Shown piece after piece: positions 501 to 44,671 of a stretch of DNA of 63,108 nucleotides. The first letter of the stretch is position 1; each line of letters starts with the position of its first letter. The DNA lies in contig CAZCSM010000009.1 in assembly GCA_964501355.1 (NCBI GenBank), forward strand, positions 1-63,108. Direction: 5' to 3'. The notes under the pieces were generated by a model that made no database searches, was not told where the DNA came from, and saw only the letters and a program-made list of their open reading frames with translations. The stretch is from an uncultured Candidatus Saccharibacteria bacterium (GTDB lineage: Bacteria > Patescibacteriota > Dojkabacteria > CAZCSM01). The translations under genes were made by a program, and so were the position numbers.

Positions 501-623
501 TGGATCAAAAATAAAATGTGCTAATAAATTTATAGTACATTTATATTAAGTTTATTTAAGAGATTCATATTCTAATATATTTATGTTTAAATATAAGTAT
601 ACTAGTTTTAATATTTAAATAAA

Positions 624-1181: not shown

Positions 1182-1209
1182 AACTGAATGATTGAATTAT
1201 TTCCGGGAA

Positions 1210-2244: not shown

Positions 2245-2246
2245 AA

Positions 2247-6746: not shown

Positions 6747-6747
6747 G

Positions 6748-21358: not shown

Positions 21359-21359
21359 T

Positions 21360-28130: not shown

Positions 28131-28697
28131 CTATCTTTTTACATTAACATCTAGACCTTTACGAGTATTAGGTAAGTAGATGACTTCGCAGAAATCATAA
28201 TCTTTATAAAAAAGATAATCTTCCCGCGAGATATTTATTCTTTCACTACCGTTTATCACTACATATCTTGCGACGGAATGACGACCCCTTGTGTATGTAA
28301 ATTCACAAGTACCGGAATATTCCTCATATCCGGCAATTTCGTCTTTTATCAGATTAAGTGTATTATAAACCCCAAAAGCTGCAAACAATCCAAACGCAAA
28401 TAGCGCAAAGACGAACTCCACAAACTTTATTTTTTTAGCATTTCTCTTCTTCCTTTTTTCCGAAAAAACACTAAAGGGAAAGATTGAACAAGCTATCACT
28501 ACGATTGTCCAATAAACAATTTCTAAGAAAAGAAGAATTCTCCAATTTTTGATGCTCAAAACTTCAATTACCCAGAACGGATATAAAAACGTTACCACGA
28601 TGATTCCAGTTATTAACAAAGTAAAACACAACCAAAAAATCATCTGGACGATGGGTTTTTGTTTTTGTATGTCTTTAAAAATTGGAAATATTTTCAT
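28131..28697 (-). CDS. polytopic membrane protein, last gene of the surface-protein cluster
   Basis: 188 aa with about 4 TM helices, then a ~70-aa soluble C-terminal domain. It starts 23 nt after the 1458-aa gene stop. Confidence 0.5.
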   Translation of the reverse strand: MKIFPIFKDIQKQKPIVQMIFWLCFTLLITGIIVVTFLYPFWVIEVLSIKNWRILLFLEIVYWTIVVIACSIFPFSVFSEKRKKRNAKKIKFVEFVFALFAFGLFAAFGVYNTLNLIKDEIAGYEEYSGTCEFTYTRGRHSVARYVVINGSERINISREDYLFYKDYDFCEVIYLPNTRKGLDVNVKR

Positions 28698-28720
28698 TTG
28701 AATAAATAATCAATTATTCG

Positions 28721-31700
28721 TTATTCATCCGGAATTGCAGTAACAATGCTAATGCCCGAATGTGTAAAAGCGGTTACCCCGCTTGGGATTGCAATTCCCC
28801 ATTCCAAATCAAGTGTCGCATTCGAAGGGTGTGAAGTCGGCTTTGTCAGGTTGGTATCAACAGAACTTGTAGTTGCAGATAAGACACTTCCAGAACCATA
28901 TGTAAATGGTGTTGTGGAATACTGCTGATTTTCGACTGGAATTACAGAAGCACTACACGTCGGGTAATCTGTACACAAATTCGAGCCTGATAAACTTAAA
29001 TCAATTGTTCCGTTTCCGGTATTTGTAATCGTTGTCGCATAGTTAGTAGAACCGGTATTTGTTCCTTTATCCAAGGTTTCATAATAAAGGGTGTCTTGTG
29101 CTGACATAGCAATAAGTGTTGCCATCTCGATTGTATCTGTATCTGCTGTTCCTGCACCAACTGTATCAGTTGGTGTCACTTGACACGTCCAGTCATCTGC
29201 TACATATGTCCCTGCATCTGTCGGATCTGCGTGATACCAGACGTTAAATGTGCAAGTGTAATCTTGTGTTAATCCACTACCGTTTGATGGAACACAGTTT
29301 GTGTTCCCACTTACTGTGTAGTGATTGTTATTATCATCTGTTGCTGAATATCCTACTCCTGTTCTGTATAAGTGTGCTCTTGCATATTGTATATTTCCAT
29401 ATCCATCTTCATCAGTTATTGTTGCTGTACAAGTCACTTCTGTTGTTGTTCCCTCGGTTAGATTAATAGCTAATGCATCTGCGTTAATTGAGACATTACT
29501 CGTGACAGGTAGTACGTTACCACCTGTGGTTGTGAATGAAACTATATCTCCATAAAATATCTTGTTATCTCCTCTTTTGAAAAAGGCTCTTGTGTAGTAA
29601 GTTGTTGCGATATCTAAACCAGTTAAAGCTGTTGTGAATGTTCCTGTTGTTGTTTTTGCCCCATTATCGTAAAATAGTTCATACCCAACCCCCTCTCGTC
29701 CCGAACCAGAGCTATAGAGATAGTCAATTTCGTCCTGATTTAAAGCTCTATCAAATATTCTGAAATCATCTATTTCACCAGAAAACCTTCCTGCACCACC
29801 GTTATTAATATTTCCAATATTAAAGGTGGTCCATGCGAATGCACTCGAAGTTGAGCCTACAGCAGTTTCAATATGCACTCCGTTTCTATAGTAAGTTATT
29901 CTTCGATTACCCATAACAAAATCAAAAGTAAAAACTAAGTGATACCACTGATTAGCGGTAAGTCCTAAAGATACAGAAGGGCTTGCATTGTGCCATTCAA
30001 CTGAACCCGTGTTGTAATTTCTTAAGACATTAGTAGCCACAGGTGCCGAGTCAAACATTCCAACAGGTGTTGCTGAATCTGAATTTACCCAGAAGGCAAT
30101 TGTTATTGGCAATGTAGGCTTGGGAATAGTTGCGGAAATAACATCATTCACTCCGTCAAGCGTAAGCGCGGAATTAATAACGCCTGTAACAGAGTGTGAA
30201 CTTGTGTAGTTGTCTGTTCCTCCTCCGCCAGTAAAGGTCGCATTGTAATTACCCATAAAGTCTTCAACGATTGAATTGTCTTCATTATCATTCATCTTCC
30301 ATTCAACAATAGGATCTAGGTATGCAGCTGTTGTATCTGTTGTAACTAATTGTCCGTGTTCTTGAGCGTAGTAATATCCAAATGATGATAGATTTGCATT
30401 CCCTACTCCTGAGTTTTCATTAATGTCTGTTACGGCACTCGTCGAAATTGTTGGAATTCTAAATTCTGTTGTTGCAAATGGACAATAATCTATTGGTCTG
30501 GTTGCGGTATCATTGACAGGGTTATTTAAAGTTAGATTTTGCCCACATTGCCCTCCTGCATCTGTATCATTAGGTCCGTCCAATCCTCCCCACCATAAGT
30601 TTTCGGCTAAGATTATAGTTGTCGTATTGTTGAAAAGACCATACGTTTTATTTTCAATATTTAAAGATGTGAGAGTTGGTGATACTGTTCCAGCCTGATG
30701 GTATATACCGTGTGTGTTGTATCTAAAGTTAGAATTAGTTATGGAAACATTGGTAGAACCGTTGTTGTAGATTCCATACCTTCCATATGACAAATCAAGA
30801 TAGTTTATAGTGTGAGTACCTGTTCCAGATAATGAAATATCCCGCCAGTTGCTAGTAGTGGGCATGGTTGCATTACCATCATTGTTAGTATCGCCTCCGA
30901 TAAAATCATTGAAGGTTGATGTTATATATACCATGTTATTTTGCTCTCCGTTTATATTAAGACTTGCACCATTGCTTATCGTAAGTGTCGACAAACTTAC
31001 ATTAAGAACTTTTATTACGACTCCTCCTTCTAGATTTAATTGGTTCGGGGCTCCGCTTACAGTGTAGTTGCCATATTGCAAATATGAAATGTTCTCTATC
31101 CCAGCAAAATTCCGCTGTGTTATTGCACAAATGTTTGATGGACAGGATGAGGTGGAACCTGAAGCCAATCCGTACATAATTGCGTTGTAGCTATTTGAGT
31201 TAGATCCAAATCCTAGCACATCTACATTGACACCTGAACCAAGCAGAGCAGAACCTGAATTGGGAGCCACTTCTATGATTGCAGTATTTTTAATGAAGTT
31301 ATTTCTTGCCGTTGTTAAATTTCCAAGATCTACTACGGATGCTCCTACTATATTACTTTCAAGATGTGAGTCTGTTATTGTTAAAGAGCTACCTAAACCA
31401 TCGGCTCTAGCGCCATGTTTTGTATATAGGATTTTTGTGTAGGTAATTGTTCCCGTCCCTCCACCATAAACACGAATATTATCCAAGTATCCAACCGCAG
31501 GAGTTGTAGAGCTACCATCATTATTTGTATCCCCACCATGAACATCATCTCTGTGGTCGGTAAATATAATTGGTTGCGATGCTGTCCCATTCATTTCTAA
31601 AGTAGAACCATTTACAGCAAGTGTTACAGCACTCCATACTAAACCCTTAATTATAACCCCTTCATCAACTATTAGACGGTTAGAACTTCCACTAACTGTA

Positions 31701-33097
31701 TATCCTGTGTATTGCAGATAGGGTATATTGCTAATTCCAGCAAATGTTCTCTGTGGTATACGACAAATATTTGACGGACAAACGGAAGCTGCACTAGACA
31801 GTGTTCCATAACCAATAGCATTGTACGCATTAAGGTCAGTTCCTGTACCCAAAATATCTGCATTGGCTCCTGTTCCTAAGCTTACGGTTCCTGAATCCAA
31901 AGATATTTCTATTGGAACTCTAGTATTTTTAATGAAGTTATTTCTTGCTGTTGTTAAATTCGCAAGGTTATCCACTGTAACGCCCAGCAGATTACTTTCA
32001 AGATGTGAGTCTGTTATTGTTAAAGAGCTACCTAAACCATCTGCCCTAGCGCCATGTTTTGTATATAGGATTTTTGTGTAGGTAATTGTTCCCGTCCCTC
32101 CACCATAAACACGAATATTATCCAAGTATCCAACCGCAGGAGTTGTAGAGCTACCATCATTATTTGTATCCCCACCATGAACATCATCTCTGTGGTCGGT
32201 AAATATAATTGGTTGCGATGCTGTCCCATTCATTTCTAAAGTAGAACCATTTACAGCAAGTGTTACAGCACTCCATACTAAACCCTTAATTATAACCCCT
32301 TCATCAACTATTAGACGGTTAGAACTTCCACTAACTGTATATCCTGTGTATTGCAGATAGGGTATATTGCTAATTCCAGCAAATGTTCTCTGTGGTATAC
32401 GACAAATATTTGACGGACAAACGGAAGCTGCACTAGACAGTGTTCCATAACCAATAGCATTGTACGCATTAAGGTCAGTTCCTGTACCCAAAATATCTGC
32501 ATTGGCTCCTGTTCCTAAGCTTACGGTTCCTGAATCTGGTGCGATCTCAATCGGTGTCCTATCATTCTTGTTAAACACATTTCTATTTGTTGTGAAAGAT
32601 CCTATTGCATAAGATGCTATGCCTAAACGGTTGCTTTCAAAAAGCGAATCATTTATTGTGGCTGTTGATCCATTATCAAAAACCCTTACTCCCGAATTGG
32701 CATAACGAAATATTCCGTAATTAATTGTTCCCGTGCCTCCAGCGTAGAGGTATACTCCCTGCCAAGCTGCGACTGCCGTTGATGTGTGATGAGTAAATAA
32801 AACTTCATTTCCACTGGTGCCATTTACATTTAAGGTTCCCGCAACTCTTAAATAAAAGTTTCCATTAGATCTTACTTCAACACCGGGTTGTATTGTTAAG
32901 GTAACACCACTATTTACAGTGAGATTATTTGTTAATATATATCTATTTCCAGTAGTCCATGTTGTGTTAGTACTTATCGTCCCGCTCACATCATAATCAA
33001 GTGCATCTGCCTTCCATGAAAACACAAACAACCCCAGCGTAAAGATGGGAATTGTCATCAAAATTATTTGTAGTAGTCTTTTAACAGCCGATCTCAT
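28721..33097 (-). CDS. giant secreted surface protein: signal peptide, 3 beta-helix-like modules, LamG-like domain, Ig-like domains, shared C-terminal module
   Basis: 1458 aa. Signal/anchor LLQIILMTIPIFTLGLFVFSWKADA. Three modules each contain C-P-S-N-I-C..QRTFAGISNIPY and GGDTNNDG strings. LamG-like segment LTLDGVNDVISATIPKPTLPITIAFWVNSD...GEIDDFRIFDRALNQDEIDYLY. The C-terminal 139 aa are shared with three neighbours. Confidence 0.85.
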   Translation of the reverse strand: MRSAVKRLLQIILMTIPIFTLGLFVFSWKADALDYDVSGTISTNTTWTTGNRYILTNNLTVNSGVTLTIQPGVEVRSNGNFYLRVAGTLNVNGTSGNEVLFTHHTSTAVAAWQGVYLYAGGTGTINYGIFRYANSGVRVFDNGSTATINDSLFESNRLGIASYAIGSFTTNRNVFNKNDRTPIEIAPDSGTVSLGTGANADILGTGTDLNAYNAIGYGTLSSAASVCPSNICRIPQRTFAGISNIPYLQYTGYTVSGSSNRLIVDEGVIIKGLVWSAVTLAVNGSTLEMNGTASQPIIFTDHRDDVHGGDTNNDGSSTTPAVGYLDNIRVYGGGTGTITYTKILYTKHGARADGLGSSLTITDSHLESNLLGVTVDNLANLTTARNNFIKNTRVPIEISLDSGTVSLGTGANADILGTGTDLNAYNAIGYGTLSSAASVCPSNICRIPQRTFAGISNIPYLQYTGYTVSGSSNRLIVDEGVIIKGLVWSAVTLAVNGSTLEMNGTASQPIIFTDHRDDVHGGDTNNDGSSTTPAVGYLDNIRVYGGGTGTITYTKILYTKHGARADGLGSSLTITDSHLESNIVGASVVDLGNLTTARNNFIKNTAIIEVAPNSGSALLGSGVNVDVLGFGSNSNSYNAIMYGLASGSTSSCPSNICAITQRNFAGIENISYLQYGNYTVSGAPNQLNLEGGVVIKVLNVSLSTLTISNGASLNINGEQNNMVYITSTFNDFIGGDTNNDGNATMPTTSNWRDISLSGTGTHTINYLDLSYGRYGIYNNGSTNVSITNSNFRYNTHGIYHQAGTVSPTLTSLNIENKTYGLFNNTTTIILAENLWWGGLDGPNDTDAGGQCGQNLTLNNPVNDTATRPIDYCPFATTEFRIPTISTSAVTDINENSGVGNANLSSFGYYYAQEHGQLVTTDTTAAYLDPIVEWKMNDNEDNSIVEDFMGNYNATFTGGGGTDNYTSSHSVTGVINSALTLDGVNDVISATIPKPTLPITIAFWVNSDSATPVGMFDSAPVATNVLRNYNTGSVEWHNASPSVSLGLTANQWYHLVFTFDFVMGNRRITYYRNGVHIETAVGSTSSAFAWTTFNIGNINNGGAGRFSGEIDDFRIFDRALNQDEIDYLYSSGSGREGVGYELFYDNGAKTTTGTFTTALTGLDIATTYYTRAFFKRGDNKIFYGDIVSFTTTGGNVLPVTSNVSINADALAINLTEGTTTEVTCTATITDEDGYGNIQYARAHLYRTGVGYSATDDNNNHYTVSGNTNCVPSNGSGLTQDYTCTFNVWYHADPTDAGTYVADDWTCQVTPTDTVGAGTADTDTIEMATLIAMSAQDTLYYETLDKGTNTGSTNYATTITNTGNGTIDLSLSGSNLCTDYPTCSASVIPVENQQYSTTPFTYGSGSVLSATTSSVDTNLTKPTSHPSNATLDLEWGIAIPSGVTAFTHSGISIVTAIPDE
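31352..31897. repeat. 546-bp direct repeat, copy A (intragenic)
   Basis: Identical to 31991..32536 except at two positions (31403 and 31406). The offset is exactly 639 bp (213 codons). Confidence 0.9.
31991..32536. repeat. 546-bp direct repeat, copy B (intragenic)
   Basis: See copy A. The shadow ORFs 31393..31590/32032..32229 and 31672..31863/32311..32502 in the track are duplicates at the same 639-bp offset. Confidence 0.9.
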
Positions 33098-33156
33098 TAA
33101 GTTCCCATCCTAAACTCGTTGTTATTTATTAATATAATTGTACACGTTTTCAGTAA

Positions 33157-36100
33157 TTAATCAGTAGGAATTGCAGTGAAAATATTCTCTCCGTGATGAA
33201 CATATCCCAATGCGTATGATGGAACACTGATTCCCCATTCCAGATCAAAGGTTGCATTCGAAGGATTCGCAGTAGGTTTTGTTAAATTAATATCAACAGG
33301 AGTTGAGCTTGCTGACAGAACACTACCGGAACCATAGGTGAATGGTGTTGTAGAGTATTGTTGATTATTGACTGTGATTATTGATCCGCTGCATGTCGGA
33401 TAATCTGTGCACATATCAGATCCTGATACTTGAATATCTATTTCACCGTTTCCGGTATTTGTAATTGTGGTTTCAAAATTTGTAGAACCGGTGTTGTTCC
33501 CCCTATCCAAGCTATCATAATCCAATGAATCGGCTGCTGACATCGCGATAAGTGTTGCCATCTCAATTGTATCTGTATCTGATGTTCCCGCTCCAACAGT
33601 ATCAGTTGGTGTTACCTGACACGTCCAATCATCTGTTTCGTATGTCCCTGCATCTGTTGGATCTGCATGATAATATACATTAAATGTACACGTGTAATAT
33701 TCTACTGATCCTGATCCTCCTGATGGTACACACTCTGAATCTCCGGACACAGTGTAATGATTATTGTCATCGTCTGCTGATGATTCGCCTACTCCTGTTC
33801 TGAATAGCTTTGCTTCAACTGATGTAATATTCCCGTATCCATCTACATCTGCTACTGTTGCTGTACAAACGACTTCAGTCGTTGTTGATTCAGTGAGTGT
33901 TATTTCCGTTGCATCTGCATCGATTGAAACATTGCTTGCTACAGGAAGACTATTTCCTCCAGTTGTTGTAAAGTTTACAACATCTCCATACATATGGAGT
34001 CCATCGGTTCTATTTACAAATGCTCGCGTATAGTATGTTGTCGCTTCTTCTAGACTCGTAAGACTAGTTGTGTAGACTCCCGTTGTTAGCTTCTGTCCGT
34101 TATCATAAAAGACTTCGTAACCGAGGCCCTCATGTCCATCTCCAGAGTTGTATAAATAATCGATCTCAGCTTGATTTAGCGAGTAATCAAATATTCGGAA
34201 ATCATCTATTTCTCCTGCAAACCTACCAGCACTTCCGTTGTTTATGTTTCCAATATTAAAAGTTGTCCATCCAAACGACGTAGTATCTGAACCCACTGCA
34301 ATTTGCTGTAATGTGCCATTTCTATAATATGTAAGTCGGCGTTTTCCACCATAAATCTCATATACAAAAGTTAAGTGATACCAAGTATCTGCCGTCAAAT
34401 TTAAAGTTACTTCAGGATCATTACTGTGCCATTCAACTTTTCCAGCTTCATAGTTTCTGAATACGTATCCAACGTTAGGGCCAGAGTCAAACATTCCAAC
34501 AGGATCATCTACATCTGAATTGACCCAAAATGCTATCGTTATCGGAAGACTTGGTTTTGGTATTGTTGCTGATACTACATCGTTTACTCCATCAAATGTT
34601 AATGCTGAATCTATTACCCCTGTTACGCTATGTGAGCTTGTATAGTTATCTGTTCCTCCTCCTCCTGTAAACGTTGCATTGTAGTTACCCATGAAATCTG
34701 TAACCACTGAATCGTCTGCATTATCGTCCATTTGCCATTCTACAATAGGATCAAGATAAACGATTTGATTGCTAGTTGAAAGCAGTTGTCCATGATTCAA
34801 TGCATGATAATATCCATATGATGAAATATTGGCATTTCCAACACCCGAATTTTCATTCACATCTGTTACTGAATTTGTTGTAAGAGTCGGGATTCTGAAT
34901 TCGGTGGTTGCAAATGGACAATAGTCTATAGGGTGTGATGCATCGTCATTAACGCTATTATTAAGTGTTGAATTAATACTGCATTGCCCACCAGCATCTG
35001 CATCATTCGGACCATCGGCCGCCCCCCACCATAGATTTTCCATGGTAAGAACAGTGGAAGTGTTATTATAATAACCGTAACTATAATTGTTGACTATATT
35101 TAAGGCGCTAAATGTGGGAGCAGAACCACTGTTAAAATAGCCGCCGTATGTATTAATTCTAGAATTTGAATTGCTTATTGTTACATTAGTTGCGGTATTG
35201 TTGAAGTAAGCAGTATGACCATAAGAAATATCAACATAATCTAATGAGTGAGTCCCCGCCCCCCTTAAATCGAGACTATTCCAATCAGCTCGAGAAGGCA
35301 ATGTTGCAGTACCATCGTTATTGGTATCACCTCCGATATAATCGTTCTTGAGTGATGTAAAATAAACCATATTATTCAAAGTTCCATTAACATCTAAAGA
35401 AGCACCGCTAGTTACTACTAGATCTACATTAGAGGTTGATTTCATGATAACACCGGGATCGAAAACAACAGTATCATCACTTCCATTAAACGTATAATCA
35501 CTATTCATATGATATGGCCAGTTTGTAATACCTGCAAAAGTTTTTTGATCAAATGTGCAGATGTTAGAAATACAATCATCAGTGCCTGTATCAGTCCAAC
35601 CTGTCAAGATCACATTATTTGAATTTGCGTTAGCGTCGGTACCAACGATATCCGTACTTGCGCCTGAACCTAAAGACAATGATACGTAATCGGGGTTTAA
35701 CTCAATAGGAGCGATTGACTGTTTGTTGAATGTGTTTCTTGCCGTCGTCAATGAAGCATGTTCATAAATAGATATTCCCGTCTGACAACTTTCAAAGAGA
35801 GAGTCCTGAACGGTCGCAGAAGAGTAGTCATAAACTCTTAACCCCCTATCCGCATAGTAGATTTTTGAATAATCGACCGTAGCCGATGAACTGTTTGCCG
35901 CCATTATACTATCCCATTCTCCAATTGATGGGGTTGTAGCGGACCCATCATTGTTGGTATCACCACCAAAAGTATCATCATACTCAGAAGTAAATATGAC
36001 CTCATTCCCTTCTGAACCATTTACGTCCAAAGATGTTCCTGCTCTAACACGCAAGTAACCGTTAGTAAAAGATATTCTCCTGAATTTTATAATAACGCCA

Positions 36101-38205
36101 GGGTCTATTTCCAGTTTCGCTCCGGCGGTAGAATCAGATATTTCATAATTATCGTAGATGACGTATGGAATATTACTTATTCCAGCAAATGTTCTCTGCG
36201 GAAATTCGCAAATATCCAATGGACACGAAGAGGATCCGGAATCACTATACCCAACCAGGATTCCATTGTAACCATTTATATCAGAACCCGTACCGATTAT
36301 ATCTACATTGGTACCGCTACCGAAGATTACAGTTAATACGTCCGGATTTAGGTCTATAGGGGCAAAAGTCAACTTTTTAAAGGTATTACGAGAGGTGGTC
36401 AATGAGGCCTGTTCAGATACTGAAATTCCGACACGCCCTAATTCGAAAAGTGTATCGTTAATAACAGCGCTAGATCCGGCACCGGTAACAATAAATCTGT
36501 CATGGTAAAATATCTTTGCATAGTCAACAGTAGCAGAACAATTTGCTGCAATACTAAAGCCAGTCCAATTACTGACAGAAGGAGATGTTGCTGAGGAGTC
36601 GTTATTTGTGTCTCCCGCAATAGTGTCATCATATTCAGATGTAAATATCACCTCATTACCTGAAGACCCATTTATGTCAAGATCGCAACCATTTTGTATT
36701 TGTAGAATAGCATTAGATAAAGGTAATTTTCGAACCTTGATGATAACACCTGCATCTATCTCTAATTTTGCACCTGCAGTAGGATCGTTTACGGTATACG
36801 AATCTATCATAACATAAGGGATGTTGCTTATTCCGGCAAATGTTCTCTGTGGAATATCGCAAATATTAGAAGGACAATCAGACGCGCCGCTATCATATAA
36901 GCTAATACCTATTGCGTTATAGCCATTAACATTTGCACCCGTACCCAAGACATCTGCATCAGATCCGGTGCCCAATGATATAGATAAAACATCAGGATTT
37001 AAAACAATTGGCGTATACGTCATTTTATTAAAGGTATTACGGGCAGTTGTTAGTGATGCGCGTTCATAAACATCAATACCCGTTTCGTTAAGCTCAAATA
37101 AACTGTCGTATATAGTAGCAGAAGTATTTGTTCCATTAACCTTTATAGATCTCTGATAATAAAATTTTCCGTAGTCAATTGTTGCCGTACAACCAGAATC
37201 AACAAAAATACCATACCAGTTTGTTGTACTTGGAGACGTTGCGGTTCCATCATTATTAGTATCACCACCCTGTGAATCATCGTATTCAGAGGTAAAGATT
37301 ACCTCGTTACCAGAAGATCCATTTATATCAAGGTCACAGCCACTTTGCACACTTAAATATCCATTTGACAAAGATAACTTTCTGCCCTTAACCAAAACGC
37401 CTCCGTCAATCTGAAGCTTTGCTCCAGAAGTTGAGTCATTAACCGTATATTGGTTAAGTATAATATATGAAATGTTACTTATACCGGCGAAAGTCCGCTG
37501 CGGAATTGAACAAATATCCGAGGGACAATTGTTTGAACCACTATCTGTAAGACCAATCCCAATTGCATTATACCCATTAACATCTGTGCCTGTGCCCAGA
37601 ACATCAGCATCGGTCCCTGCTCCTAGTGTTACAGAATACACATCCGTATTTAACTCTATCGGTGTATACAACTGCTTGTTAAAAGTATTTCTTGCTGTCG
37701 TCAATGACCCTCGTTCAAATACGGATATACCTAACTCACAGCTATTGAATAAAGAATCATTAACAGTTGCCGTTGCATTATCTTCGTAAATACGCAGCCC
37801 TGTATCTGCATAATAAAACTTCGCATAATCAATATACGCAGTACCGTTGTTTCTTATATACACACCGTACCAGGCACCAACGGTCGTTGATGTATGATGA
37901 GTAAATAGGACTTCACTGCCAATAGTTCCATTTACATCTAGTGTTCCATAAACTTGAAAATAATAATTCCCATTTGCACGAACTTCAACTCCGGGCTCTA
38001 CCGTAAGAGTAACTCCGCTTGCTACAGTAACATGTCCTGTCATAATATAGCGATTACCTGTTGTCCAGGTAGTATTTGTAGAAATAGTCCCTGTGACGTT
38101 GTAATCTGTCGCATCTGCCTTCCAAGAAAACACAAACAACCCAATTGCAAAGATTGGAATTGTCATCAATGTTATTTGTAGCAGTCTTTTACCGATCGTA
38201 CTCAT
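33157..38205 (-). CDS. giant secreted surface protein, paralogue of the 1458-aa protein with 4 beta-helix-like modules
   Basis: 1682 aa. The N-terminal ~110 aa and C-terminal ~650 aa are closely similar to the neighbour. There are four C-P-x-x-I-C...QRTFAGISNI modules, the same LamG-like segment and the same 139-aa C-terminal module. Confidence 0.85.
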   Translation of the reverse strand: MSTIGKRLLQITLMTIPIFAIGLFVFSWKADATDYNVTGTISTNTTWTTGNRYIMTGHVTVASGVTLTVEPGVEVRANGNYYFQVYGTLDVNGTIGSEVLFTHHTSTTVGAWYGVYIRNNGTAYIDYAKFYYADTGLRIYEDNATATVNDSLFNSCELGISVFERGSLTTARNTFNKQLYTPIELNTDVYSVTLGAGTDADVLGTGTDVNGYNAIGIGLTDSGSNNCPSDICSIPQRTFAGISNISYIILNQYTVNDSTSGAKLQIDGGVLVKGRKLSLSNGYLSVQSGCDLDINGSSGNEVIFTSEYDDSQGGDTNNDGTATSPSTTNWYGIFVDSGCTATIDYGKFYYQRSIKVNGTNTSATIYDSLFELNETGIDVYERASLTTARNTFNKMTYTPIVLNPDVLSISLGTGSDADVLGTGANVNGYNAIGISLYDSGASDCPSNICDIPQRTFAGISNIPYVMIDSYTVNDPTAGAKLEIDAGVIIKVRKLPLSNAILQIQNGCDLDINGSSGNEVIFTSEYDDTIAGDTNNDSSATSPSVSNWTGFSIAANCSATVDYAKIFYHDRFIVTGAGSSAVINDTLFELGRVGISVSEQASLTTSRNTFKKLTFAPIDLNPDVLTVIFGSGTNVDIIGTGSDINGYNGILVGYSDSGSSSCPLDICEFPQRTFAGISNIPYVIYDNYEISDSTAGAKLEIDPGVIIKFRRISFTNGYLRVRAGTSLDVNGSEGNEVIFTSEYDDTFGGDTNNDGSATTPSIGEWDSIMAANSSSATVDYSKIYYADRGLRVYDYSSATVQDSLFESCQTGISIYEHASLTTARNTFNKQSIAPIELNPDYVSLSLGSGASTDIVGTDANANSNNVILTGWTDTGTDDCISNICTFDQKTFAGITNWPYHMNSDYTFNGSDDTVVFDPGVIMKSTSNVDLVVTSGASLDVNGTLNNMVYFTSLKNDYIGGDTNNDGTATLPSRADWNSLDLRGAGTHSLDYVDISYGHTAYFNNTATNVTISNSNSRINTYGGYFNSGSAPTFSALNIVNNYSYGYYNNTSTVLTMENLWWGAADGPNDADAGGQCSINSTLNNSVNDDASHPIDYCPFATTEFRIPTLTTNSVTDVNENSGVGNANISSYGYYHALNHGQLLSTSNQIVYLDPIVEWQMDDNADDSVVTDFMGNYNATFTGGGGTDNYTSSHSVTGVIDSALTFDGVNDVVSATIPKPSLPITIAFWVNSDVDDPVGMFDSGPNVGYVFRNYEAGKVEWHSNDPEVTLNLTADTWYHLTFVYEIYGGKRRLTYYRNGTLQQIAVGSDTTSFGWTTFNIGNINNGSAGRFAGEIDDFRIFDYSLNQAEIDYLYNSGDGHEGLGYEVFYDNGQKLTTGVYTTSLTSLEEATTYYTRAFVNRTDGLHMYGDVVNFTTTGGNSLPVASNVSIDADATEITLTESTTTEVVCTATVADVDGYGNITSVEAKLFRTGVGESSADDDNNHYTVSGDSECVPSGGSGSVEYYTCTFNVYYHADPTDAGTYETDDWTCQVTPTDTVGAGTSDTDTIEMATLIAMSAADSLDYDSLDRGNNTGSTNFETTITNTGNGEIDIQVSGSDMCTDYPTCSGSIITVNNQQYSTTPFTYGSGSVLSASSTPVDINLTKPTANPSNATFDLEWGISVPSYALGYVHHGENIFTAIPTD

Positions 38206-38216
38206 GGAGTAACGAC

Positions 38217-39242
38217 TTATGTTTCTTTACCCTCGTCGTTCTTATCTTCGTCTTTGTCCCGATCGACGAGCAGTAAAATGAATATTATTAAGAATGATGT
38301 GAATAAGAAGCCGCCGATCAGATAATATTTATATTTACCTATCATGGCACTCAAATGGGCCAGATTTTCGGATAGCGAATTCTTTAGCAATTCTTTAATT
38401 CTGTTAATCAGACCGCCTTCACCGGTCTCCGGCAGATTATTCAAATCTTCAACTGCCGAACCTTCATAAACATTAAAAATTGATCGATCTTTCAACAGTT
38501 CGACATTGAGATCTTTTACGACAATTTCACCAACGTAAGTTCCGGGTTTCAATCCGTGTTTCTCAAAAAGAACCTCTACACTATCCGTTGTAAATGGTGA
38601 AATATCGGGAATTTCATTTGATGAAAAAGTATCAACCAATTTCTCGTCTAGTGAATAGACTTCAACTTGTACAAAATCAGGAGCACCCGTAACATTTCCA
38701 TTATTTCTAATTTTCAACTCGACAATCATTGGGGATGATTCATTCGTATCTTGAATTATCGCATTTTGCGCATCAAATAATCGAACATCTTTTTCCGTTA
38801 AAATGAAATCTAAATCAAGTCGAACAGCAGGTTGAATTGAAACTTGTCCTTGATCTTCATTCTTCAAAATGACGCGAATATATCCTTCATATTTCCCATA
38901 TTCAGAATCTTCGGGAATTGTTAATGTGACGGTGAATGGAACACGCTGTGTGCCAGCCGGCAGAATCATATCCGTTCCCGGAGTAATAGTTATCCAATCA
39001 CGAAAATCTTCTGCATCAATCTGAATTTCCGCAGCAACTGTTTTATCCGGATTTCCACGGGATATGATAAATTCCTGGACAAATGTAGATCCGGGCTTCA
39101 AGCTTTCATTATATATTCCACCGGGAGACACACCGATACTTGCCGCAAAGACAGGATTAAAGAGAACTGCTCCTAACCAGATACCCATAAAAATTAATAT
39201 TGAACGAACAAACTTGTTTGTTTTTATTTGCATTAATACCAT
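38217..39242 (-). CDS. surface protein with two Ig/CARDB-like domains, LPETG motif, C-terminal TM helix and charged tail
   Basis: 341 aa. Signal peptide ...LFNPVFAAS, beta-sandwich-like repeats (IGVSPGGIYNESLKPGSTF..., ELKIRNNGNVTGAPDFVQVEV...), LPETG encoded at 38421-38435, TM YYLIGGFLFTSFLIIFILLLV, tail DRDKDEDKNDEGKET. Confidence 0.7.
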   Translation of the reverse strand: MVLMQIKTNKFVRSILIFMGIWLGAVLFNPVFAASIGVSPGGIYNESLKPGSTFVQEFIISRGNPDKTVAAEIQIDAEDFRDWITITPGTDMILPAGTQRVPFTVTLTIPEDSEYGKYEGYIRVILKNEDQGQVSIQPAVRLDLDFILTEKDVRLFDAQNAIIQDTNESSPMIVELKIRNNGNVTGAPDFVQVEVYSLDEKLVDTFSSNEIPDISPFTTDSVEVLFEKHGLKPGTYVGEIVVKDLNVELLKDRSIFNVYEGSAVEDLNNLPETGEGGLINRIKELLKNSLSENLAHLSAMIGKYKYYLIGGFLFTSFLIIFILLLVDRDKDEDKNDEGKET

Positions 39243-39315
39243 TTTTTCAAATTAATTCACTACAATAAATCTACCATAAAATGGGCATGCTTTACCATCT
39301 GATTATTATGAAAAC

Positions 39316-41103
39316 CTACCACTCACCCTGTACAGCGATTAGCGTGTTTGATCCTGAATATTCTCCGGAAGGTGTCCCCGCGGGAACTTCTGAAGACCAG
39401 TATATTGGTTCCTCACCAACTAAATCAGACGTCGTCTTTAATACGTTAAGTTCAAGTTCCAATGGATAATCCACATCTCTTCGGTCTCGCAAAATCTCCC
39501 CTGTTCCATGTGTAAACGAAGAAGTTGCATATTCCTGATTATTTGTTTCGAAATGATTTCCGGAACATGTTGGATAATTTGTACATACGGAATAGTCGGC
39601 AGTGACATCACCAGTCTGGTTTGTTGCACCTACCTCAGTATCGATATTAGTATTTCCTGTACAGGTTACCGGTAATTGTATATTTGCACTTACCTCACCG
39701 GCATCAACTGCGCCATAGTTGATCGATCCACTCGTAGAAAAAGCAATCAATGGACTTACTTGAAGTGTACCATCTGAGTCGGTAACTTCTGTTACTTCAT
39801 CTGCCGCCATTACAAATGCGGTCCAAGAAGACTCCTCATGTTGAGCCATGGAGCCAAGCGCTCCAGTCGATTCTGCATAATATTGAACAGGCGCGGTACA
39901 ATTATATCGAACACTATCATCACTTGAACCCGCACAACCGTTTGTTCCTGAATCGACAGTACAAGTGATAACAGGATAACACACATCACCATCTGAATCT
40001 CCAGCCGCATCACAATCAGTATGTCCTCCGGGTAACCATGTTCCCCAAAAATCCATTCTGACGTAATCTATATCTTGACATGAATTAGAATCTTGAACAT
40101 CAACATAAGCTATAAGCGGAGTTGTTAAACTTTCTGTTAAGGTCAATGTGTCAAAGTTAAAACTATGTATTGTCATAACTGGATCAATATTATTAACGAT
40201 CCAGTTGGTATTTACCGATGTTGCCTGCTGAGTTGTAGCTCTACCTACATGAAGCAGATTGTGCTCGTCATAGACAAATGCATGTGCTGTAAAAGTCCCA
40301 TCGAGGTATACACTAGGAATTGAGAACTCTGCGGATGGGTTATCTGTAGCCGGAACGGCAGTAGTTGCTAATGTTGTAGCAACGCAGGTCGGTGCTGTAT
40401 ATGGGGTAGTTTGAATAGCATTTGGCGAACTACAAATAAGTAATGTCAATTCATCGTCTGTCGTATCATAGGTATCTGTATCGGATCCGTCCGATGTAAA
40501 AGTTACTAAGGTGCCGGGATTTACACCTGCGCCCGTATCATTATTTACCGTAGTTAATGACGGTACATGATTAACTACAAAAGGACTATCCGAATCTCCT
40601 GGTACGGCCGGATTATAAACAGCAGAACACTTGCTATCTGAACTATAATCACATACAAATGCATACCAAGGACTATTCTCAGCATCGCCAGTCTGCACTG
40701 TATATTGACAGGAGGTGGAAACTTCGTCTGCCGTAGACGATGAAACACACCATGTCCCGACATCGCAAGTTGGGACAGCATTATTATGCGGTGTTACCGC
40801 AGCAGTTTTACAAACTGCTAAATAATAATTATTTCCATCCTGATCATCGCCGGTTGCACGAAAAGTTATCGCACTTCCAACGTTGGTAGGAGTTGATGAA
40901 GTAGACGCAGTGAACGTGAAGTTGCTTTCCTCGTATGGATCTACGCTAAATGATGGAGCAGCATTATTTACACTAATTACAGTAGGAACGTTCTCAGGAT
41001 CATCCGCGTAGGCATTGTAAGACAAGAGAATTAAACCGAATATAAAAACGGCTACAAAGGAAAACTGTTGTAAGATTTTACTACCGAGAACCTTGAATTG
41101 CAT
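39316..41103 (-). CDS. secreted Cys-rich surface protein (paralogue A) with shared C-terminal module
   Basis: ATG at 41103 (MQFKVLGSK). Signal ...LLSYNAYA. Conserved block TFRATGDDQDGNNYYLAVCK...WYAFVCD...SPFVVNH. The C-terminal 150 aa are homologous to the C-termini of the giant proteins. Confidence 0.7.
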   Translation of the reverse strand: MQFKVLGSKILQQFSFVAVFIFGLILLSYNAYADDPENVPTVISVNNAAPSFSVDPYEESNFTFTASTSSTPTNVGSAITFRATGDDQDGNNYYLAVCKTAAVTPHNNAVPTCDVGTWCVSSSTADEVSTSCQYTVQTGDAENSPWYAFVCDYSSDSKCSAVYNPAVPGDSDSPFVVNHVPSLTTVNNDTGAGVNPGTLVTFTSDGSDTDTYDTTDDELTLLICSSPNAIQTTPYTAPTCVATTLATTAVPATDNPSAEFSIPSVYLDGTFTAHAFVYDEHNLLHVGRATTQQATSVNTNWIVNNIDPVMTIHSFNFDTLTLTESLTTPLIAYVDVQDSNSCQDIDYVRMDFWGTWLPGGHTDCDAAGDSDGDVCYPVITCTVDSGTNGCAGSSDDSVRYNCTAPVQYYAESTGALGSMAQHEESSWTAFVMAADEVTEVTDSDGTLQVSPLIAFSTSGSINYGAVDAGEVSANIQLPVTCTGNTNIDTEVGATNQTGDVTADYSVCTNYPTCSGNHFETNNQEYATSSFTHGTGEILRDRRDVDYPLELELNVLKTTSDLVGEEPIYWSSEVPAGTPSGEYSGSNTLIAVQGEW

Positions 41104-41161
41104 AACACTACATTTAACCAATCAAGTGAAGAGTACGCTAACCAATTTCACACCAAGTTTC

Positions 41162-42898
41162 TTACCAAGCCCCTTGTATTGCGGTAAGTGTATTCGTACC
41201 TGTATAACTACCTGAAATTGTCGTTAATGGAACAAATAATGACCAGTATGTCGGTGCAGTACCAATCTGTAGCGATGTTGTCCAATTAGTCTTTGGAACT
41301 CCTAGATACAATGTCGTCGGTGACCCACTATAAGGCAGAGGATTTCCAGTCAAATGTGTAAATGGAGCAAGATCAAATTCCTGATTATTTGCTAAAATTG
41401 AATTCCCGCCAGACGTCATATCTGTTCCATAAACCTCTGTATCAATTATTGTATTTCCAGTTCCTGTAACTGTTACACTTTGGTTTGTACTAGTATCTCC
41501 GACATCAAGTGCTCCATAATATATGCTGTCACCTGCGGAGAAAGCAACTAGAAGATCAACATTTAGATTTGTCGCTGAATCTTCATCCGAAACAGCATCA
41601 TCATCTGTTGCTGTAACATATGCATGCCAATTATCCGAAACATGTTCTGAGCCAGTTCCTGTTGCTTCGGCGTAATATTGAACGGGAACAGTGCAATCAT
41701 ATGCCACACTATTATCACTTGTTCCCGCACATGCATTGGTACCGCTATCTACGGTGCAAGTTACAACAGGATAACAATCATCTGGATCAGAATCTCCTGA
41801 TACACCGCAATCTCCATGCCCTCCTGCCAACCAACCTCCAAAAAAATCAATTACTACGCTTCCTCCTGAAGTAATGTCCTGACATGAGTTGTTATCAGTT
41901 ACCGTAACATTTGCTAAGAGATTCGTAGTTGTACTTTCAGTCAATACTAAAGTTGTTGTATTAAAACTATCTATTCCAACTGTAGGTGCTGTATTATTTA
42001 CTTCCCAAGTATCCGTCTGTGGGGCAGAAGCTAATAAATTGTGCTGGTCATAGACATAGCCGTATGCAGTATATGTGCCATCAGGATAAGAAATTCCAGC
42101 ACCTGCATCTAAATCAGCAAGATAAGTTGTAGTTGGATCTGTTAAAGCTCCGGCACTTAAATTTAACTGAGTTCCGTTACATGTTGGGGCAGTATAGGTT
42201 GTAGCTTGAGTAACACCGGATGATGAACATACCAAAAGATACAAGTTATCATCTGTGGTTCCATAGGTATCGGTATCCGAGGCCGTTGCGTTATATGTGA
42301 AAGTGGAACCCGGATCTTGTGGCGAAACTGGAACGGCAAGAGCTGTATATGTAGCTCTATGATTAACAACAAACGGACTTCCGGAATCTCCAGTTCCCTG
42401 AGAAGATGCTGAACATTTACTATCACCGCTATTATCACAAACAAATGCATACCAAACAGATTCTTCCGCATCTCCAACTAGTGCGGTATATTGACACGAA
42501 GTTGCGACTTCATCTGCCGTAGATGTTGAAACACACCAGGCGCCACCATCACATGTTGGAGGTGTGTTAATACCACCACCTGCCGTAATGGCATCAGACT
42601 TACAAACTGCAAGATAGTAGGCGTTACCGTCCTGATCATCGCCGGTTGCCCTAAAGGTAATAGAACTCCCGACATTTATTGGAGTCGTGGGAGTCGAAGC
42701 CGTAAGTGTAACCGTATTTTCTTCATATGGGTCAACGTCAAACGCAGGAGCAGTATTATTTATATCTACACTAGCCGTAATTTCCTCTGGAGTATCTGCA
42801 GCATCAGCGGTATATGAAAGGAACACCGTTCCCATAACAAATACTGCCATTAATATCAGCAGCTCCAGTTTATTATTTTTAAGTTTTTTTGTCTGCAT
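41162..42898 (-). CDS. secreted Cys-rich surface protein (paralogue B) with shared C-terminal module
   Basis: ATG at 42898 (MQTKKLK). Signal ...FLSYTADA. Same conserved blocks as paralogue A (TFRATGDDQDGNAYYLAVCK, WYAFVCDNSGDSKC, SPFVVNH). C-terminal 135-aa module. Confidence 0.7.
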   Translation of the reverse strand: MQTKKLKNNKLELLILMAVFVMGTVFLSYTADAADTPEEITASVDINNTAPAFDVDPYEENTVTLTASTPTTPINVGSSITFRATGDDQDGNAYYLAVCKSDAITAGGGINTPPTCDGGAWCVSTSTADEVATSCQYTALVGDAEESVWYAFVCDNSGDSKCSASSQGTGDSGSPFVVNHRATYTALAVPVSPQDPGSTFTYNATASDTDTYGTTDDNLYLLVCSSSGVTQATTYTAPTCNGTQLNLSAGALTDPTTTYLADLDAGAGISYPDGTYTAYGYVYDQHNLLASAPQTDTWEVNNTAPTVGIDSFNTTTLVLTESTTTNLLANVTVTDNNSCQDITSGGSVVIDFFGGWLAGGHGDCGVSGDSDPDDCYPVVTCTVDSGTNACAGTSDNSVAYDCTVPVQYYAEATGTGSEHVSDNWHAYVTATDDDAVSDEDSATNLNVDLLVAFSAGDSIYYGALDVGDTSTNQSVTVTGTGNTIIDTEVYGTDMTSGGNSILANNQEFDLAPFTHLTGNPLPYSGSPTTLYLGVPKTNWTTSLQIGTAPTYWSLFVPLTTISGSYTGTNTLTAIQGAW

Positions 42899-42954
42899 TA
42901 ACAAATGATAATAACTCACTTATCCAGAATAAAGTTTAATCAGAATTTAGTCAA

Positions 42955-44155: not shown

Positions 44156-44667
44156 ATGAAGAGACTTTACATCCTGTTCTCAGATATTCGCGGACATACA
44201 GAATGGTCCGAGAGACATTCTCCTCAACAGCTTATCGATCTACTTAGCAATTATTACGCTTCTCCCAAAAATAACTGCGTTCATATGAATACATCTTCCG
44301 ATGAAATTCTGATGTTCTTTGATAATGTGGAATATGCCATGCGTGCTGCAAAAAGATTGTATATGTACAGTCAGGAATTGAAGGAGAAAGAAAAACTTTC
44401 AATCGGTATTGCTTTACATGTTGGAGAAGTGGAAAAGCTGGTTTATCAGAAGAGTCATGTTAAATACAAAACATACGTCGGCCATTCAATAAGCGTAGGA
44501 AAAAGATTGGAGAATCTATGTGCAGGAAGTGAGATAATTATCTCTGAGGATGTTTATAATGATTTACCGGAAGAAGAAAAAAACAACTTCAAATCGACAA
44601 TAGAGGTTTCAGTAAAGGGGAAAAGAGATCCAATCAAAATTTATCTACTTGAAGGTAAACTTCGAGT

Positions 44668-44671
<4 letters not shown>
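44156..44671 (+). CDS. minimal class III nucleotidyl cyclase catalytic domain protein
   Basis: 171 aa. ILFSDIRGHTEW (metal Asp), SDEILMFF, GIALHVGEV and VGKRLENLCAGSEIIISEDVY fit the adenylate/guanylate cyclase catalytic domain pattern. No sensor or effector domain. Confidence 0.6.

What the first reader, a model, noticed from the sequence alone, without database searches (positions are those of the whole stretch)
28131..42919. Co-oriented six-gene cluster of giant and Cys-rich secreted proteins: candidate undescribed cell-surface/adhesion system
Seen in sequence: six same-strand genes are separated by only 11-73 nt. (1) and (2) are two ~580-600-aa paralogues with signal peptides and conserved Cys-containing blocks (TFRATGDDQDGN.YYLAVCK, WYAFVCD, SPFVVNH). 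(3) is a 341-aa two-Ig-domain protein with LPETG, a TM helix and a charged tail. (4) and (5) are 1682- and 1458-aa paralogues built from 4 or 3 modules of ~200 aa each. Each module has a C-P-x-N/D-I-C...QRTFAGISNI.Y string and a GGDTNNDG acidic loop. These are followed by a LamG-like lectin domain, Ig-like domains and a shared C-terminal module. (6) is a 188-aa polytopic membrane protein. No secretion ATPase, usher, sortase or pilin-like gene is present in the window. Inference: the layout recalls the WxL/Csc cell-surface-complex loci of Firmicutes, which combine a membrane-anchored Ig-like CscA-type protein with several proteins sharing a C-terminal attachment domain. No sequence identity to those families can be asserted by eye. 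In an organism with a reduced genome, such a large investment (about 14.8 kb) points to host or partner attachment.
Basis: partly seen in the sequence, partly recalled or inferred. Interest (0 to 1): 0.8.

Follow-up and report, generated by a model that had tools for sequence, protein, structure and literature searches.

The report
Patescibacterial WxL-like surface-protein display cluster
Six same-strand genes of an ultra-small (Patescibacteria-type) bacterium encode four exported proteins that share an unannotated 270-residue tail, plus a membrane-anchored partner protein that lay beside such genes in all 12 loci examined; the layout mirrors the WxL surface-display clusters of gut Firmicutes and probably holds adhesins on the cell surface.

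Summary
Six minus-strand ORFs lie exactly as described, 11-73 nt apart. There is one addition: all four large proteins, not only the two giants, share a ~270-aa C-terminal module (E 1e-25 to 1e-31).

The module has no Pfam or NCBIfam model. It defines a large family (1,855 clusters at 50% identity). All named members are Patescibacteria. It sits at the extreme C-terminus in 240 of 245 proteins, which range from 173 to 4,157 aa. AlphaFold2 (pLDDT 95) shows two tandem beta-sandwiches.

The 341-aa protein is signal peptide, two Ig-like domains and a TM helix. Its best match among solved structures is the Enterococcus WxL-interacting protein (WxLIP, 9i1y/9i25, E 9e-11). Its homologues lay next to module genes in all 12 loci examined.

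So the cluster has the architecture of Firmicute WxL/Csc loci: large and small proteins with a shared C-terminal domain, plus an Ig-Ig-TM partner. It fails the sequence tests for WxL, DUF916 and DUF3324.

The LPETG is not a sortase signal. The 188-aa membrane protein is not conserved with the system.

Best reading: a Patescibacteria-specific, WxL-like surface display and adhesin system that I found described in no paper. The docking mechanism is inferred, not shown.

The parts
41162..42919 (-). g1, 585 aa. Signal peptide, then a Cys-containing N-terminal region (~aa 41-300), then the shared C-terminal module (aa ~305-585, nt 41162-41998).
   Evidence: ORF. 51% identical to g2, and shares the module with g4/g5 at E 1e-25 to 1e-31. 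Matches the module HMM at E 2.8e-81. AF2 model of the module has pLDDT 95.1.
39316..41121 (-). g2, 601 aa. Paralogue of g1 with the same architecture. Module at nt 39316-40194.
   Evidence: Matches the module HMM at E 3e-73.
38217..39242 (-). g3, 341 aa. Signal peptide; conserved mature N-terminus (A)SIGVSP; two beta-sandwich domains (aa ~35-148 and 156-259); a linker holding the non-conserved LPETG; a helix; a C-terminal TM helix (aa ~305-332); a short charged tail. Proposed membrane-anchored partner of the module.
   Evidence: AF2 model. Foldseek top hits are 9i1y and 9i25_C (WxLIP), E 9e-11. Family alignments. Adjacent to module genes in all 12 loci examined.
33157..38205 (-). g4, 1682 aa. 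Signal peptide; 4 repeats of 217 aa (nt ~35206-38118); LamG domain (aa 1218-1348, nt 34162-34554); Ig-like linker region; C-terminal module (nt 33157-33945).
   Evidence: Matches the module HMM at E 2.1e-96.
28721..33097 (-). g5, 1458 aa. Paralogue of g4 with 3 repeats of ~213 aa (nt ~30728-33010); LamG domain (aa 994-1124, nt 29726-30118); C-terminal module (nt 28721-29521). It contains a recent internal 639-nt tandem duplication (31335-31915 vs 31974-32554).
   Evidence: Matches the module HMM at E 9.1e-93.
28131..28697 (-). g6, 188 aa. Three TM-like segments and a ~70-aa C-terminal soluble part with Cys residues. Co-oriented, 23 nt after g5. Its membership in the system is unsupported.
   Evidence: No homologue in any of the related loci tested. 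The metagenome scan found none.

Best explanation
The cluster is a cell-surface protein display system specific to Patescibacteria. It is built like the WxL/Csc clusters of Firmicutes.

Shown:
- Four Sec-exported proteins (g1, g2, g4, g5) carry different N-terminal payloads. g1/g2 have Cys-containing Ig-like regions. g4/g5 have 3-4 repeats of ~215 aa with Ca-loop-like GDTNND motifs, plus a LamG lectin-type domain.
- All four end in the same ~270-aa module of two tandem beta-sandwiches.
- g3 is an Ig-Ig-TM protein whose closest solved structure is the WxL-interacting protein.
- g3 homologues and module genes are neighbours in every locus examined.

Inferred:
- After export, the module docks non-covalently onto the ectodomain of membrane-anchored g3, and possibly also onto the cell wall.
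- The payloads are therefore held on the outside of the cell. There they bind a host, a partner cell or a polysaccharide.
- Payload turnover (protein lengths of 173-4,157 aa across the family, and a fresh repeat duplication in g5) tunes what is bound.

g6 is probably only a neighbouring gene.
For: 1. Shared module: E 1e-25 to 1e-31 among the four proteins.
2. Family size: 1,855 representative clusters at E<=1e-3 and 1,429 at E<=1e-10.
3. Position: the module ends within 15 residues of the C-terminus in 240 of 245 proteins. 98 of the 245 are at most 350 aa, i.e. signal peptide plus module only.
4. Taxonomy: every member that carries a name is from Patescibacteria (Paceibacterota, Staskawiczbacteria, Nomurabacteria).
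5. Module structure: AF2 pLDDT 95, two beta-sandwiches.
6. g3 structure: signal peptide, two Ig-like domains, TM helix. The best PDB matches are WxLIP 9i1y and 9i25_C at E 9e-11 and 15-18% identity, aligned over 260-263 columns against WxLIP chains of 251-267 residues.
7. Synteny: a g3-like gene is adjacent to module genes in L001, L003, L004, L006, L007, L009, L010 and L011 (found starting from module proteins or close g3 relatives) and in L012, L013 and L014 (found starting from distant g3 relatives). The usual order is large, small, g3-like.
8. This order reproduces the published WxL cluster anatomy: small WxL, large WxL with a C-terminal WxL domain, and WxLIP of 337-365 aa (PMC10599100 and PMC9772566).
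9. Export signals are present on all five proteins. The module holds conserved Cys residues. DsbA and VKOR genes lie next to one related cluster.
10. Many related clusters also encode a dockerin-ended protein (above the Pfam cutoff) and weakly cohesin-like membrane proteins. This fits a surface-assembly operon.
11. LamG domain in g4 and g5.
Against: - No physical interaction between g3 and the module was tested. No multimer prediction was available.
- The g3 to WxLIP link is structural only. Other tandem-Ig proteins (CEP192 SPD-2, ASH-domain ciliary proteins, RbmA, PapD-like chaperones) score only 10- to 10,000-fold worse. TM-scores are low (0.27-0.34).
- The g3 model is of moderate quality (pLDDT 75, from 5 sequences).
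- No sequence or profile link exists from the g3 family to DUF916 or DUF3324.
- No WxL match is among the listed families for the module. No WxL chain appears in the top 50 Foldseek hits of the module.
- The window's own cluster has no small module-only protein.
- The window's cluster lacks the dockerin and cohesin-like genes of the typical clusters.
- The adhesin role of the payloads is inferred from domain types alone.
Confidence: 0.5

Rival explanations
1. The module is a self-assembling unit of a surface layer, sheath or fibre. The abundant small module-only proteins would be the main building block. Proteins such as g1, g2, g4 and g5 would be adhesin variants that co-assemble through the same module, as proposed for archaeal sheath adhesins. 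g3 would be the membrane anchor, or a PapD-like assembly chaperone.
For: - 98 of 245 family members are signal peptide plus module only.
- A small member sits in nearly every cluster.
- The module's Foldseek hits include pilin subunits: CfaB, AggA and the 3bwu_F pilus subunit.
- g3's hits include the two-domain chaperones DraB, FimC and CfaA.
- There is a conceptual precedent in archaeal sheath proteins with Ig-like caps (PMC11576556).
Against: - Both module domains are predicted as complete sandwiches at pLDDT 95, with no missing strand.
- The pilin and chaperone matches are weaker than the generic tandem-Ig matches.
- No small subunit gene is present in this window.
- Patescibacteria are not expected to have an outer membrane or usher (general knowledge), and no usher gene was found in the window.
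- g3 is membrane-anchored and is encoded once per cluster.
Confidence: 0.25
2. The proteins are released, not displayed. The C-terminal module would itself be the target-binding domain, or an export or quality-control domain, for secreted enzymes or effectors. g3 would be an unrelated co-regulated surface protein or an immunity-like factor.
For: - The N-terminal regions are highly variable, including beta-helix and LamG/DUF2341 types that are also common in glycan-active enzymes.
- No anchoring enzyme gene is present in the window.
Against: - The strict adjacency of g3 homologues to module genes in all 12 loci argues for a functional pair.
- No catalytic domain was detected in g1, g2, g4 or g5.
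- Module-only proteins would have no payload to deliver.
Confidence: 0.1
3. This is sortase-dependent anchoring. g3 would be covalently linked to peptidoglycan through LPETG and would nucleate the complex, like the LPxTG protein found in many WxL clusters.
For: LPETG is present at g3 residue 270. It is kept in 3 of 5 close homologues.
Against: - The motif lies about 35 residues before the TM helix.
- It reads SPETG in P0005 and SPE-G in the L003 member, and is absent in P0003 and the L004 member.
- The tail after the TM helix is acidic or mixed in charge in this protein.
- No sortase gene is present in the window.
Confidence: 0.03

Closest known systems
WxL / Csc cell-surface complex clusters of Lactobacillales and Bacillales (small WxL, large WxL, WxLIP = CscA = DUF916-DUF3324-TM)
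   Same: - The gene-cluster logic is the same: several exported proteins share one C-terminal domain, which is always the last domain.
- They come as 'small' (domain only) and 'large' (N-terminal adhesin-type domains, including beta-helical ones) forms.
- One protein of ~290-470 aa (most 290-340) with signal peptide, two Ig-like domains and a C-terminal TM helix is encoded beside them.
- g3's best solved structural match is WxLIP itself.
- g3 is 341 aa; WxLIP is 337-365 aa.
   Different: - The phylum differs (Patescibacteria).
- The shared domain is ~270 aa and two beta-sandwiches, with one conserved Trp in each. It is not a 160-190-aa domain with two WxL motifs on adjacent strands.
- No Pfam WxL, DUF916 or DUF3324 match was found for the relevant proteins.
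- The conserved WxLIP motif NQIDKxxxYFDLK is absent. The g3 family has GFGVSP instead.
- There is no LPxTG partner protein or sortase.
- Many related clusters add dockerin and cohesin-like genes.
Cohesin-dockerin surface scaffolds (cellulosome-type)
   Same: The principle is non-covalent docking of modular exported proteins onto a membrane- or wall-anchored partner. Related Patescibacteria clusters do encode a dockerin-ended protein and weakly cohesin-like membrane proteins next to the g3-like gene.
   Different: The window's proteins have no dockerin or cohesin match. The shared module is an unrelated two-Ig unit.
Chaperone-usher pilus components (PapD-like two-domain chaperones, Ig-like pilins)
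   Same: A two-Ig-domain protein is encoded next to Ig-like exported subunits. There are weak fold matches on both sides.
   Different: There is no usher and, as expected for this phylum, no outer membrane. g3 is membrane-anchored. The module domains are predicted complete, so there is no sign of donor-strand exchange.
Large LamG / DUF2341 surface proteins noted in Parcubacteria genomes (my own recollection of the CPR genomics literature, not checked here)
   Same: These are giant exported proteins with concanavalin/LamG domains, assumed to mediate attachment.
   Different: I found no description of the shared C-terminal module or of its obligate Ig-Ig-TM neighbour in the papers searched.

Membership tests
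WxL cluster (Hassan & Williamson definition) | At least two proteins ending in a WxL domain (Pfam PF13731; 160-190 aa; two Trp-x-Leu motifs on adjacent strands) | tested here: not met
   - No WxL hit at E<=1 for g1, g2, g4 or g5.
- WxL is not among the 25 families listed (of 48 matched) for the 85 family members scanned at E<=10.
- The module is ~270 aa and two domains. Its conserved Trp residues (W124 and W252 of the g1 module) lie in different domains.
- Only g1 has a literal W-x-L; g4 and g5 have W-G-I.
WxL cluster | A WxLIP protein: DUF916 (PF06030) + DUF3324 (PF11797) + C-terminal TM helix, 337-365 aa, with the motif NQIDKxxxYFDLK | tested here: inconclusive
   - Topology and size are met (signal peptide, Ig, Ig, TM; 341 aa).
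- The best solved-structure match is WxLIP, E 9e-11.
- No Pfam hit in 12 family members at E<=10.
- No PDB sequence or profile hit.
- The motif is absent.
- The result is a fold-level resemblance. Homology is unproven.
WxL cluster | One WxLIP-type gene and at least two shared-domain genes within a few genes of each other | tested here: met
   The window has four module genes flanking g3. Module and g3-like genes are adjacent in all 11 other loci. This holds with the new module standing in for WxL.
WxL cluster | Small (domain-only) and large forms of the shared-domain protein | tested here: met
   Met across the family: 98 of 245 members are at most 350 aa and the rest reach 4,157 aa. In this window only medium (585/601 aa) and large forms occur.
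WxL cluster | The shared domain and WxLIP bind peptidoglycan, and WxLIP binds the shared domain | not testable with these tools
   This needs binding assays or multimer prediction. The only hint is that 4 of 85 module proteins weakly match PF06030 WxLIP_PGBD (best E 0.0074).
Sortase-anchored LPXTG surface protein | LPXTG directly followed by a hydrophobic segment and a positively charged tail; a sortase gene | tested here: not met
   LPETG lies ~35 aa before the TM helix. It is not conserved. The tail is acidic or mixed in charge. No sortase gene is in the window.
Laminin_G_3 (PF13385) domain proteins | Pfam match above the gathering score | tested here: met
   g4 scores 68.5 bits and g5 70.3 bits against a cutoff of 27.6.
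Chaperone-usher pili | An outer-membrane usher, a periplasmic chaperone, and subunits lacking a strand | tested here: not met
   No usher gene. g3 is membrane-anchored. The module is predicted as complete sandwiches.

The most novel reading that the evidence does not exclude
The ~270-aa module and the g3-type Ig-Ig-TM protein form a previously undescribed, phylum-wide anchoring pair. Through it, Patescibacteria would mount interchangeable adhesins, lectins and enzymes on their surface. The pair would be either an independent invention of the WxL/WxLIP principle or a homologue too distant for sequence methods. If so, it would be a main genetic determinant of which host these epibionts attach to.
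Probability: 0.45. Interest if true: 0.8.

Novelty: new variant of a known kind. Interest (0 to 1): 0.7.

Why it matters
Patescibacteria (the CPR) make up a large share of bacterial diversity. All cultivated members live attached to other microbes. Apart from type IV pili and a few adhesins in Saccharibacteria, how they hold on to and recognise hosts is largely unknown.

A conserved two-part system would help here. A common C-terminal docking module sits on hundreds of different payloads, beside a dedicated membrane partner. That gives a way to list the surface adhesin repertoire of any Patescibacteria genome by searching for one domain.

It also makes host specificity testable, by swapping payloads or deleting the partner. 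It would show that the WxL/WxLIP display principle, so far described almost only in Lactobacillales and Bacillales, has a counterpart in a very distant phylum. Both families are absent from Pfam and NCBIfam, so these genes are currently annotated only as 'hypothetical protein'.

Tried and rejected
- **Sequence links for g3.** I looked for links to DUF916/DUF3324 with Pfam at E up to 10 on single proteins and on 5 and 12 family members, with NCBIfam, and with PDB phmmer and profile searches. The only results were generic weak Ig-type hits: GH123_N_2, BACON, CARDB, NEW3, and choice_anch_T at 24.5 bits against a cutoff of 70.
- **Sequence links for the module.** Pfam gave no WxL match for the window proteins, and none among the listed families for 85 members. 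PDB searches gave nothing.
- **hhalign of the g3 family against the module family.** No relationship.
- **Foldseek of the module.** Against the PDB and the viral BFVD library it returned only generic tandem-Ig matches with TM-scores below 0.4.
- **Collection scans.** The genome-contig scan with the g3 alignment found nothing (after one search failed on too diverse an alignment). The scan with the module gave only 3 loci. Metagenome scans for g6 and for the g4/g5 LamG-to-C-terminus region found nothing. The viral contig scan found nothing.
- **Promoter and terminator scan.** Fewer sites than in shuffled sequence, so uninformative.
- **Tandem Repeats Finder.** It missed the 639-nt repeat because the period exceeds its limit. 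The repeat finder and a script found it.
- **Cluster look-up for an organism name.** The window is a whole NCBI contig of singleton proteins with no names.
- **Rejected ideas.** Sortase anchoring via LPETG; chaperone-usher pili; g6 as a conserved component; the GDTNND loops as dockerins (no Pfam match, and only one loop per repeat).

Full report
**1. The observation**

- g1: 41162-42919, 585 aa.
- g2: 39316-41121, 601 aa.
- g3: 38217-39242, 341 aa.
- g4: 33157-38205, 1682 aa.
- g5: 28721-33097, 1458 aa.
- g6: 28131-28697, 188 aa.

The gaps between them are 40, 73, 11, 59 and 23 nt. g1/g2 are 51% identical and g4/g5 56% identical.

All five large or medium proteins begin with a hydrophobic segment followed by an AxA-like site. 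g3 also has a C-terminal TM segment. g6 has three TM-like segments.

g4 has four repeats at a 217-aa period and g5 has three at about 213 aa. Each repeat carries C-x-x-[ND]-I-C, Q[RK][TN]FAGI and GDTNND. Each giant has a Laminin_G_3 domain well above the Pfam cutoff.

A Pfam pass over the window's other ORFs of at least 120 aa found signalling proteins, a type I restriction-modification system, UvrB, a UvrD/PD-(D/E)XK helicase-nuclease, Lgt and others. It found no sortase, pilin, usher or secretion ATPase. No terminator-like site lies in the intergenic gaps, but that scan was no better than shuffled sequence.

**2.

The C-terminal ~270 residues are shared by all four proteins, g1 and g2 included (blastp E 1e-25 to 1e-31; alignment A1). 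An HMM of the family finds exactly these four copies in the window and no others.

**3. The module is a large, unannotated family**

An exhaustive HMMER search of 1.84 billion representative proteins found 1,855 clusters at E<=1e-3, 1,429 at E<=1e-10 and 428 at E<=1e-30.

In 245 retrieved members, the module ends within 15 residues of the C-terminus in 240. Protein lengths run from 173 to 4,157 aa. 98 members are at most 350 aa, which is a signal peptide plus the module and nothing else.

Every member that carries a source name comes from Patescibacteria: Paceibacterota, Staskawiczbacteria, Nomurabacteria, UBA1370.

Neither Pfam nor NCBIfam has a model for the module. The larger members carry Laminin_G_3, DUF2341 or Beta_helix domains upstream of it.

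AlphaFold2 on an 85-sequence alignment gives a confident model (pLDDT 95.1, pTM 0.88) of two tandem beta-sandwich domains. Foldseek against the PDB and against viral models returns only generic tandem-Ig proteins with TM-scores below 0.4. These include AgI/II C-terminal domains, RbmA, CfaB and arrestin-like folds. The second domain resembles the N-terminal domain of GH123 enzymes.

**4. g3**

Word-indexed searches found few relatives. HMMs then detected clear homologues (E 1e-23 to 1e-140) in every related locus, so the family is much wider than the word index shows.

The family shares these features:
- a signal peptide;
- a strongly conserved mature N-terminus (G/S)(F/I)GVSP;
- two Ig-like domains;
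- a C-terminal TM helix;
- a charged tail.

The AF2 model has pLDDT 75 and was built from only 5 sequences. It shows two beta-sandwiches (aa ~35-148 and 156-259), a low-confidence linker that holds LPETG, a long helix and the TM helix.

Its top three PDB matches are 'WxLIP from Enterococcus faecium' (9i1y chains A and B) and 'WxLIP ... bound to long WxL' (9i25 chain C). They score E 9e-11 at 15-18% identity, aligned over 260-263 columns against chains of 251-267 residues. Next come CEP192 SPD-2, ASH-domain ciliary proteins, RbmA and PapD-like chaperones at 1e-9 to 1e-6.

WxLIP is therefore the best match, but inside a common fold class. TM-scores are low (0.27-0.34), and no sequence method connects the two families.

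LPETG lies about 35 residues before the TM helix. It reads SPETG in P0005 and SPE-G in the L003 member, and is absent in P0003 and the L004 member. It is not a sortase signal.

**5. Synteny**

*Starting from module proteins or close g3 relatives.* Eight loci were examined: L001, L003, L004, L006, L007, L009, L010 and L011. In each, a g3-like gene lies directly beside module genes on the same strand. The usual order is [large or medium module protein] - [small module-only protein of ~305-320 aa] - [g3-like].

*Starting from distant g3 relatives.* L012, L013 and L014 show the same pairing.

*Totals.* With the window, that is 12 of 12 loci. One further hit lay on a 3.8-kb contig too short to judge (L008).

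*Closest relative.* L001 repeats the window's order: g1-like (58% identical), then g3-like (41%), then the N-terminus of a g4-like giant (52%).

*g6.* It has no homologue in any of these loci or in a metagenome scan. I treat it as a neighbour, not a component.

**6. Comparison with the known system**

The WxL clusters of Lactobacillales and Bacillales are defined by three parts (PMC10599100 and PMC9772566):
- a small WxL protein, which is the WxL domain only;
- WxLIP, which is DUF916-DUF3324-TM and 337-365 aa long.

WxLIP is proposed to bind and stabilise WxL on peptidoglycan by inserting a strand.

The Patescibacteria clusters reproduce this anatomy part for part, with a different shared domain. 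Membership fails where it can be tested:
- no WxL, DUF916 or DUF3324 match for the relevant proteins;
- the module is larger, has two domains and has one conserved Trp per domain;
- the conserved WxLIP motif NQIDKxxxYFDLK is absent.

One weak lead remains. Four of 85 module proteins match PF06030 (WxLIP_PGBD) at best E 0.0074. That is not significant after multiple testing.

**7. Mechanism**

*Shown:*
- the export signals;
- the shared terminal module;
- the Ig-Ig-TM neighbour with WxLIP-like fold and topology;
- strict gene adjacency across distant Patescibacteria;
- very variable payloads.

*Inferred:*
- the module docks on membrane-anchored g3, and possibly on the wall, so that payloads are displayed;
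- the LamG and repeat regions bind a host or a glycan.

*Supporting context.* Typical related clusters continue with a protein ending in a type I dockerin (23.8-24.1 bits against a cutoff of 22.9, in 3 of 3 tested). After it come two membrane-anchored paralogues whose N-terminal domain weakly matches cohesin (E 0.0017 and 0.061). One cluster is preceded by DsbA and VKOR genes.

*Main rival.* The module may polymerise into a layer or fibre, with the small proteins as bulk subunit and g3 as anchor or chaperone. I cannot exclude this without oligomer predictions.

**8. Novelty**

Full-text searches found no paper linking Patescibacteria to WxL-type clusters or describing this module. The Tn-seq study of Southlakia mentions adhesins, but a term search of it found no mention of WxL, sortase or Ig-like proteins. 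The library is incomplete, so prior description cannot be ruled out.

I rate this a new variant of a known kind: the WxL-like display principle, with new domain families, in a new phylum.

**9. Limits**
- Organism identity rests on the names attached to homologues. The window is a whole 63,108-bp NCBI contig whose proteins are singletons.
- The folds of the ~215-aa repeats and of the g1/g2 N-terminal halves were not determined.
- The number of loci examined is small (12) compared with the size of the family.

Noticed in passing
window 31335-32554 (inside g5): There is a recent tandem duplication at a 639-nt offset. 31335-31915 and 31974-32554 are 96.6% identical, including a 491-nt exact run. 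This makes repeats 1 and 2 of g5 nearly identical (98% at protein level over aa 182-372). It could be real repeat expansion or an assembly effect.
   Followed up: partly
L003 12190-16332; L010 11868-14927; L012 10857-14423; L013 10864-14493: In typical related clusters the g3-like gene is followed by a secreted protein ending in a type I dockerin (above the Pfam cutoff). After it come two membrane-anchored paralogues with a weakly cohesin-like N-terminal domain. This trio is absent from the window.
   Followed up: partly
L004 4001-4939; L012 2843-3814; L010 5883-6869: A Beta-lactamase2 (PF13354) gene recurs just upstream of the large module gene in three unrelated loci. This may point to a link with cell-wall chemistry.
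   Followed up: no
L013 4027-5140; L014 2809-3342: DsbA-like and VKOR genes sit next to one cluster, which fits the conserved Cys residues of the module. An S26 signal peptidase gene sits inside the most divergent cluster, which also has a g3 paralogue and a three-Ig g3-like protein.
   Followed up: no
L006 881-2290; protein P0274: Some g3-family members are longer (443-469 aa). They have extra TM helices and a C-terminal SH3_3-type domain (PF08239 precomputed for P0274).
   Followed up: no
module family (alignment A3): 4 of 85 module proteins weakly match Pfam PF06030 (WxLIP_PGBD, best E 0.0074), and 11 of 85 match fn3_5. This may hint that module domain 2 belongs to the same Ig subclass as DUF916.
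   Followed up: no
window 15548-22964: A complete type I restriction-modification system is present: HsdR (1045 aa), HsdS (418 aa), a 485-aa ORF and HsdM (534 aa).
   Followed up: partly
window 49628-50137 and 57499-58080: Two ORFs carry IS200-like Y1 transposase domains. A similar weakly matching gene occurs in L003.
   Followed up: no
window 9-3203, 6730-7275 and 44156-44671: The window holds a cluster of signalling genes: dCache, GAF, a 7TM histidine-kinase N-terminal region, an ECF-type sigma factor and an adenylate/guanylate cyclase domain ORF. ECF sigma genes also lie near the clusters in L010 and L011.
   Followed up: no
window 42919 (g1) and 41121 (g2) start codons: g1 (GTG) and g2 (TTG) start at the first possible codon of the ORF. 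In-frame ATG codons 7 and 6 residues downstream (MQTKK..., MQFKV...) would give more conventional signal peptides, so the true lengths may be ~578 and ~595 aa.
   Followed up: no
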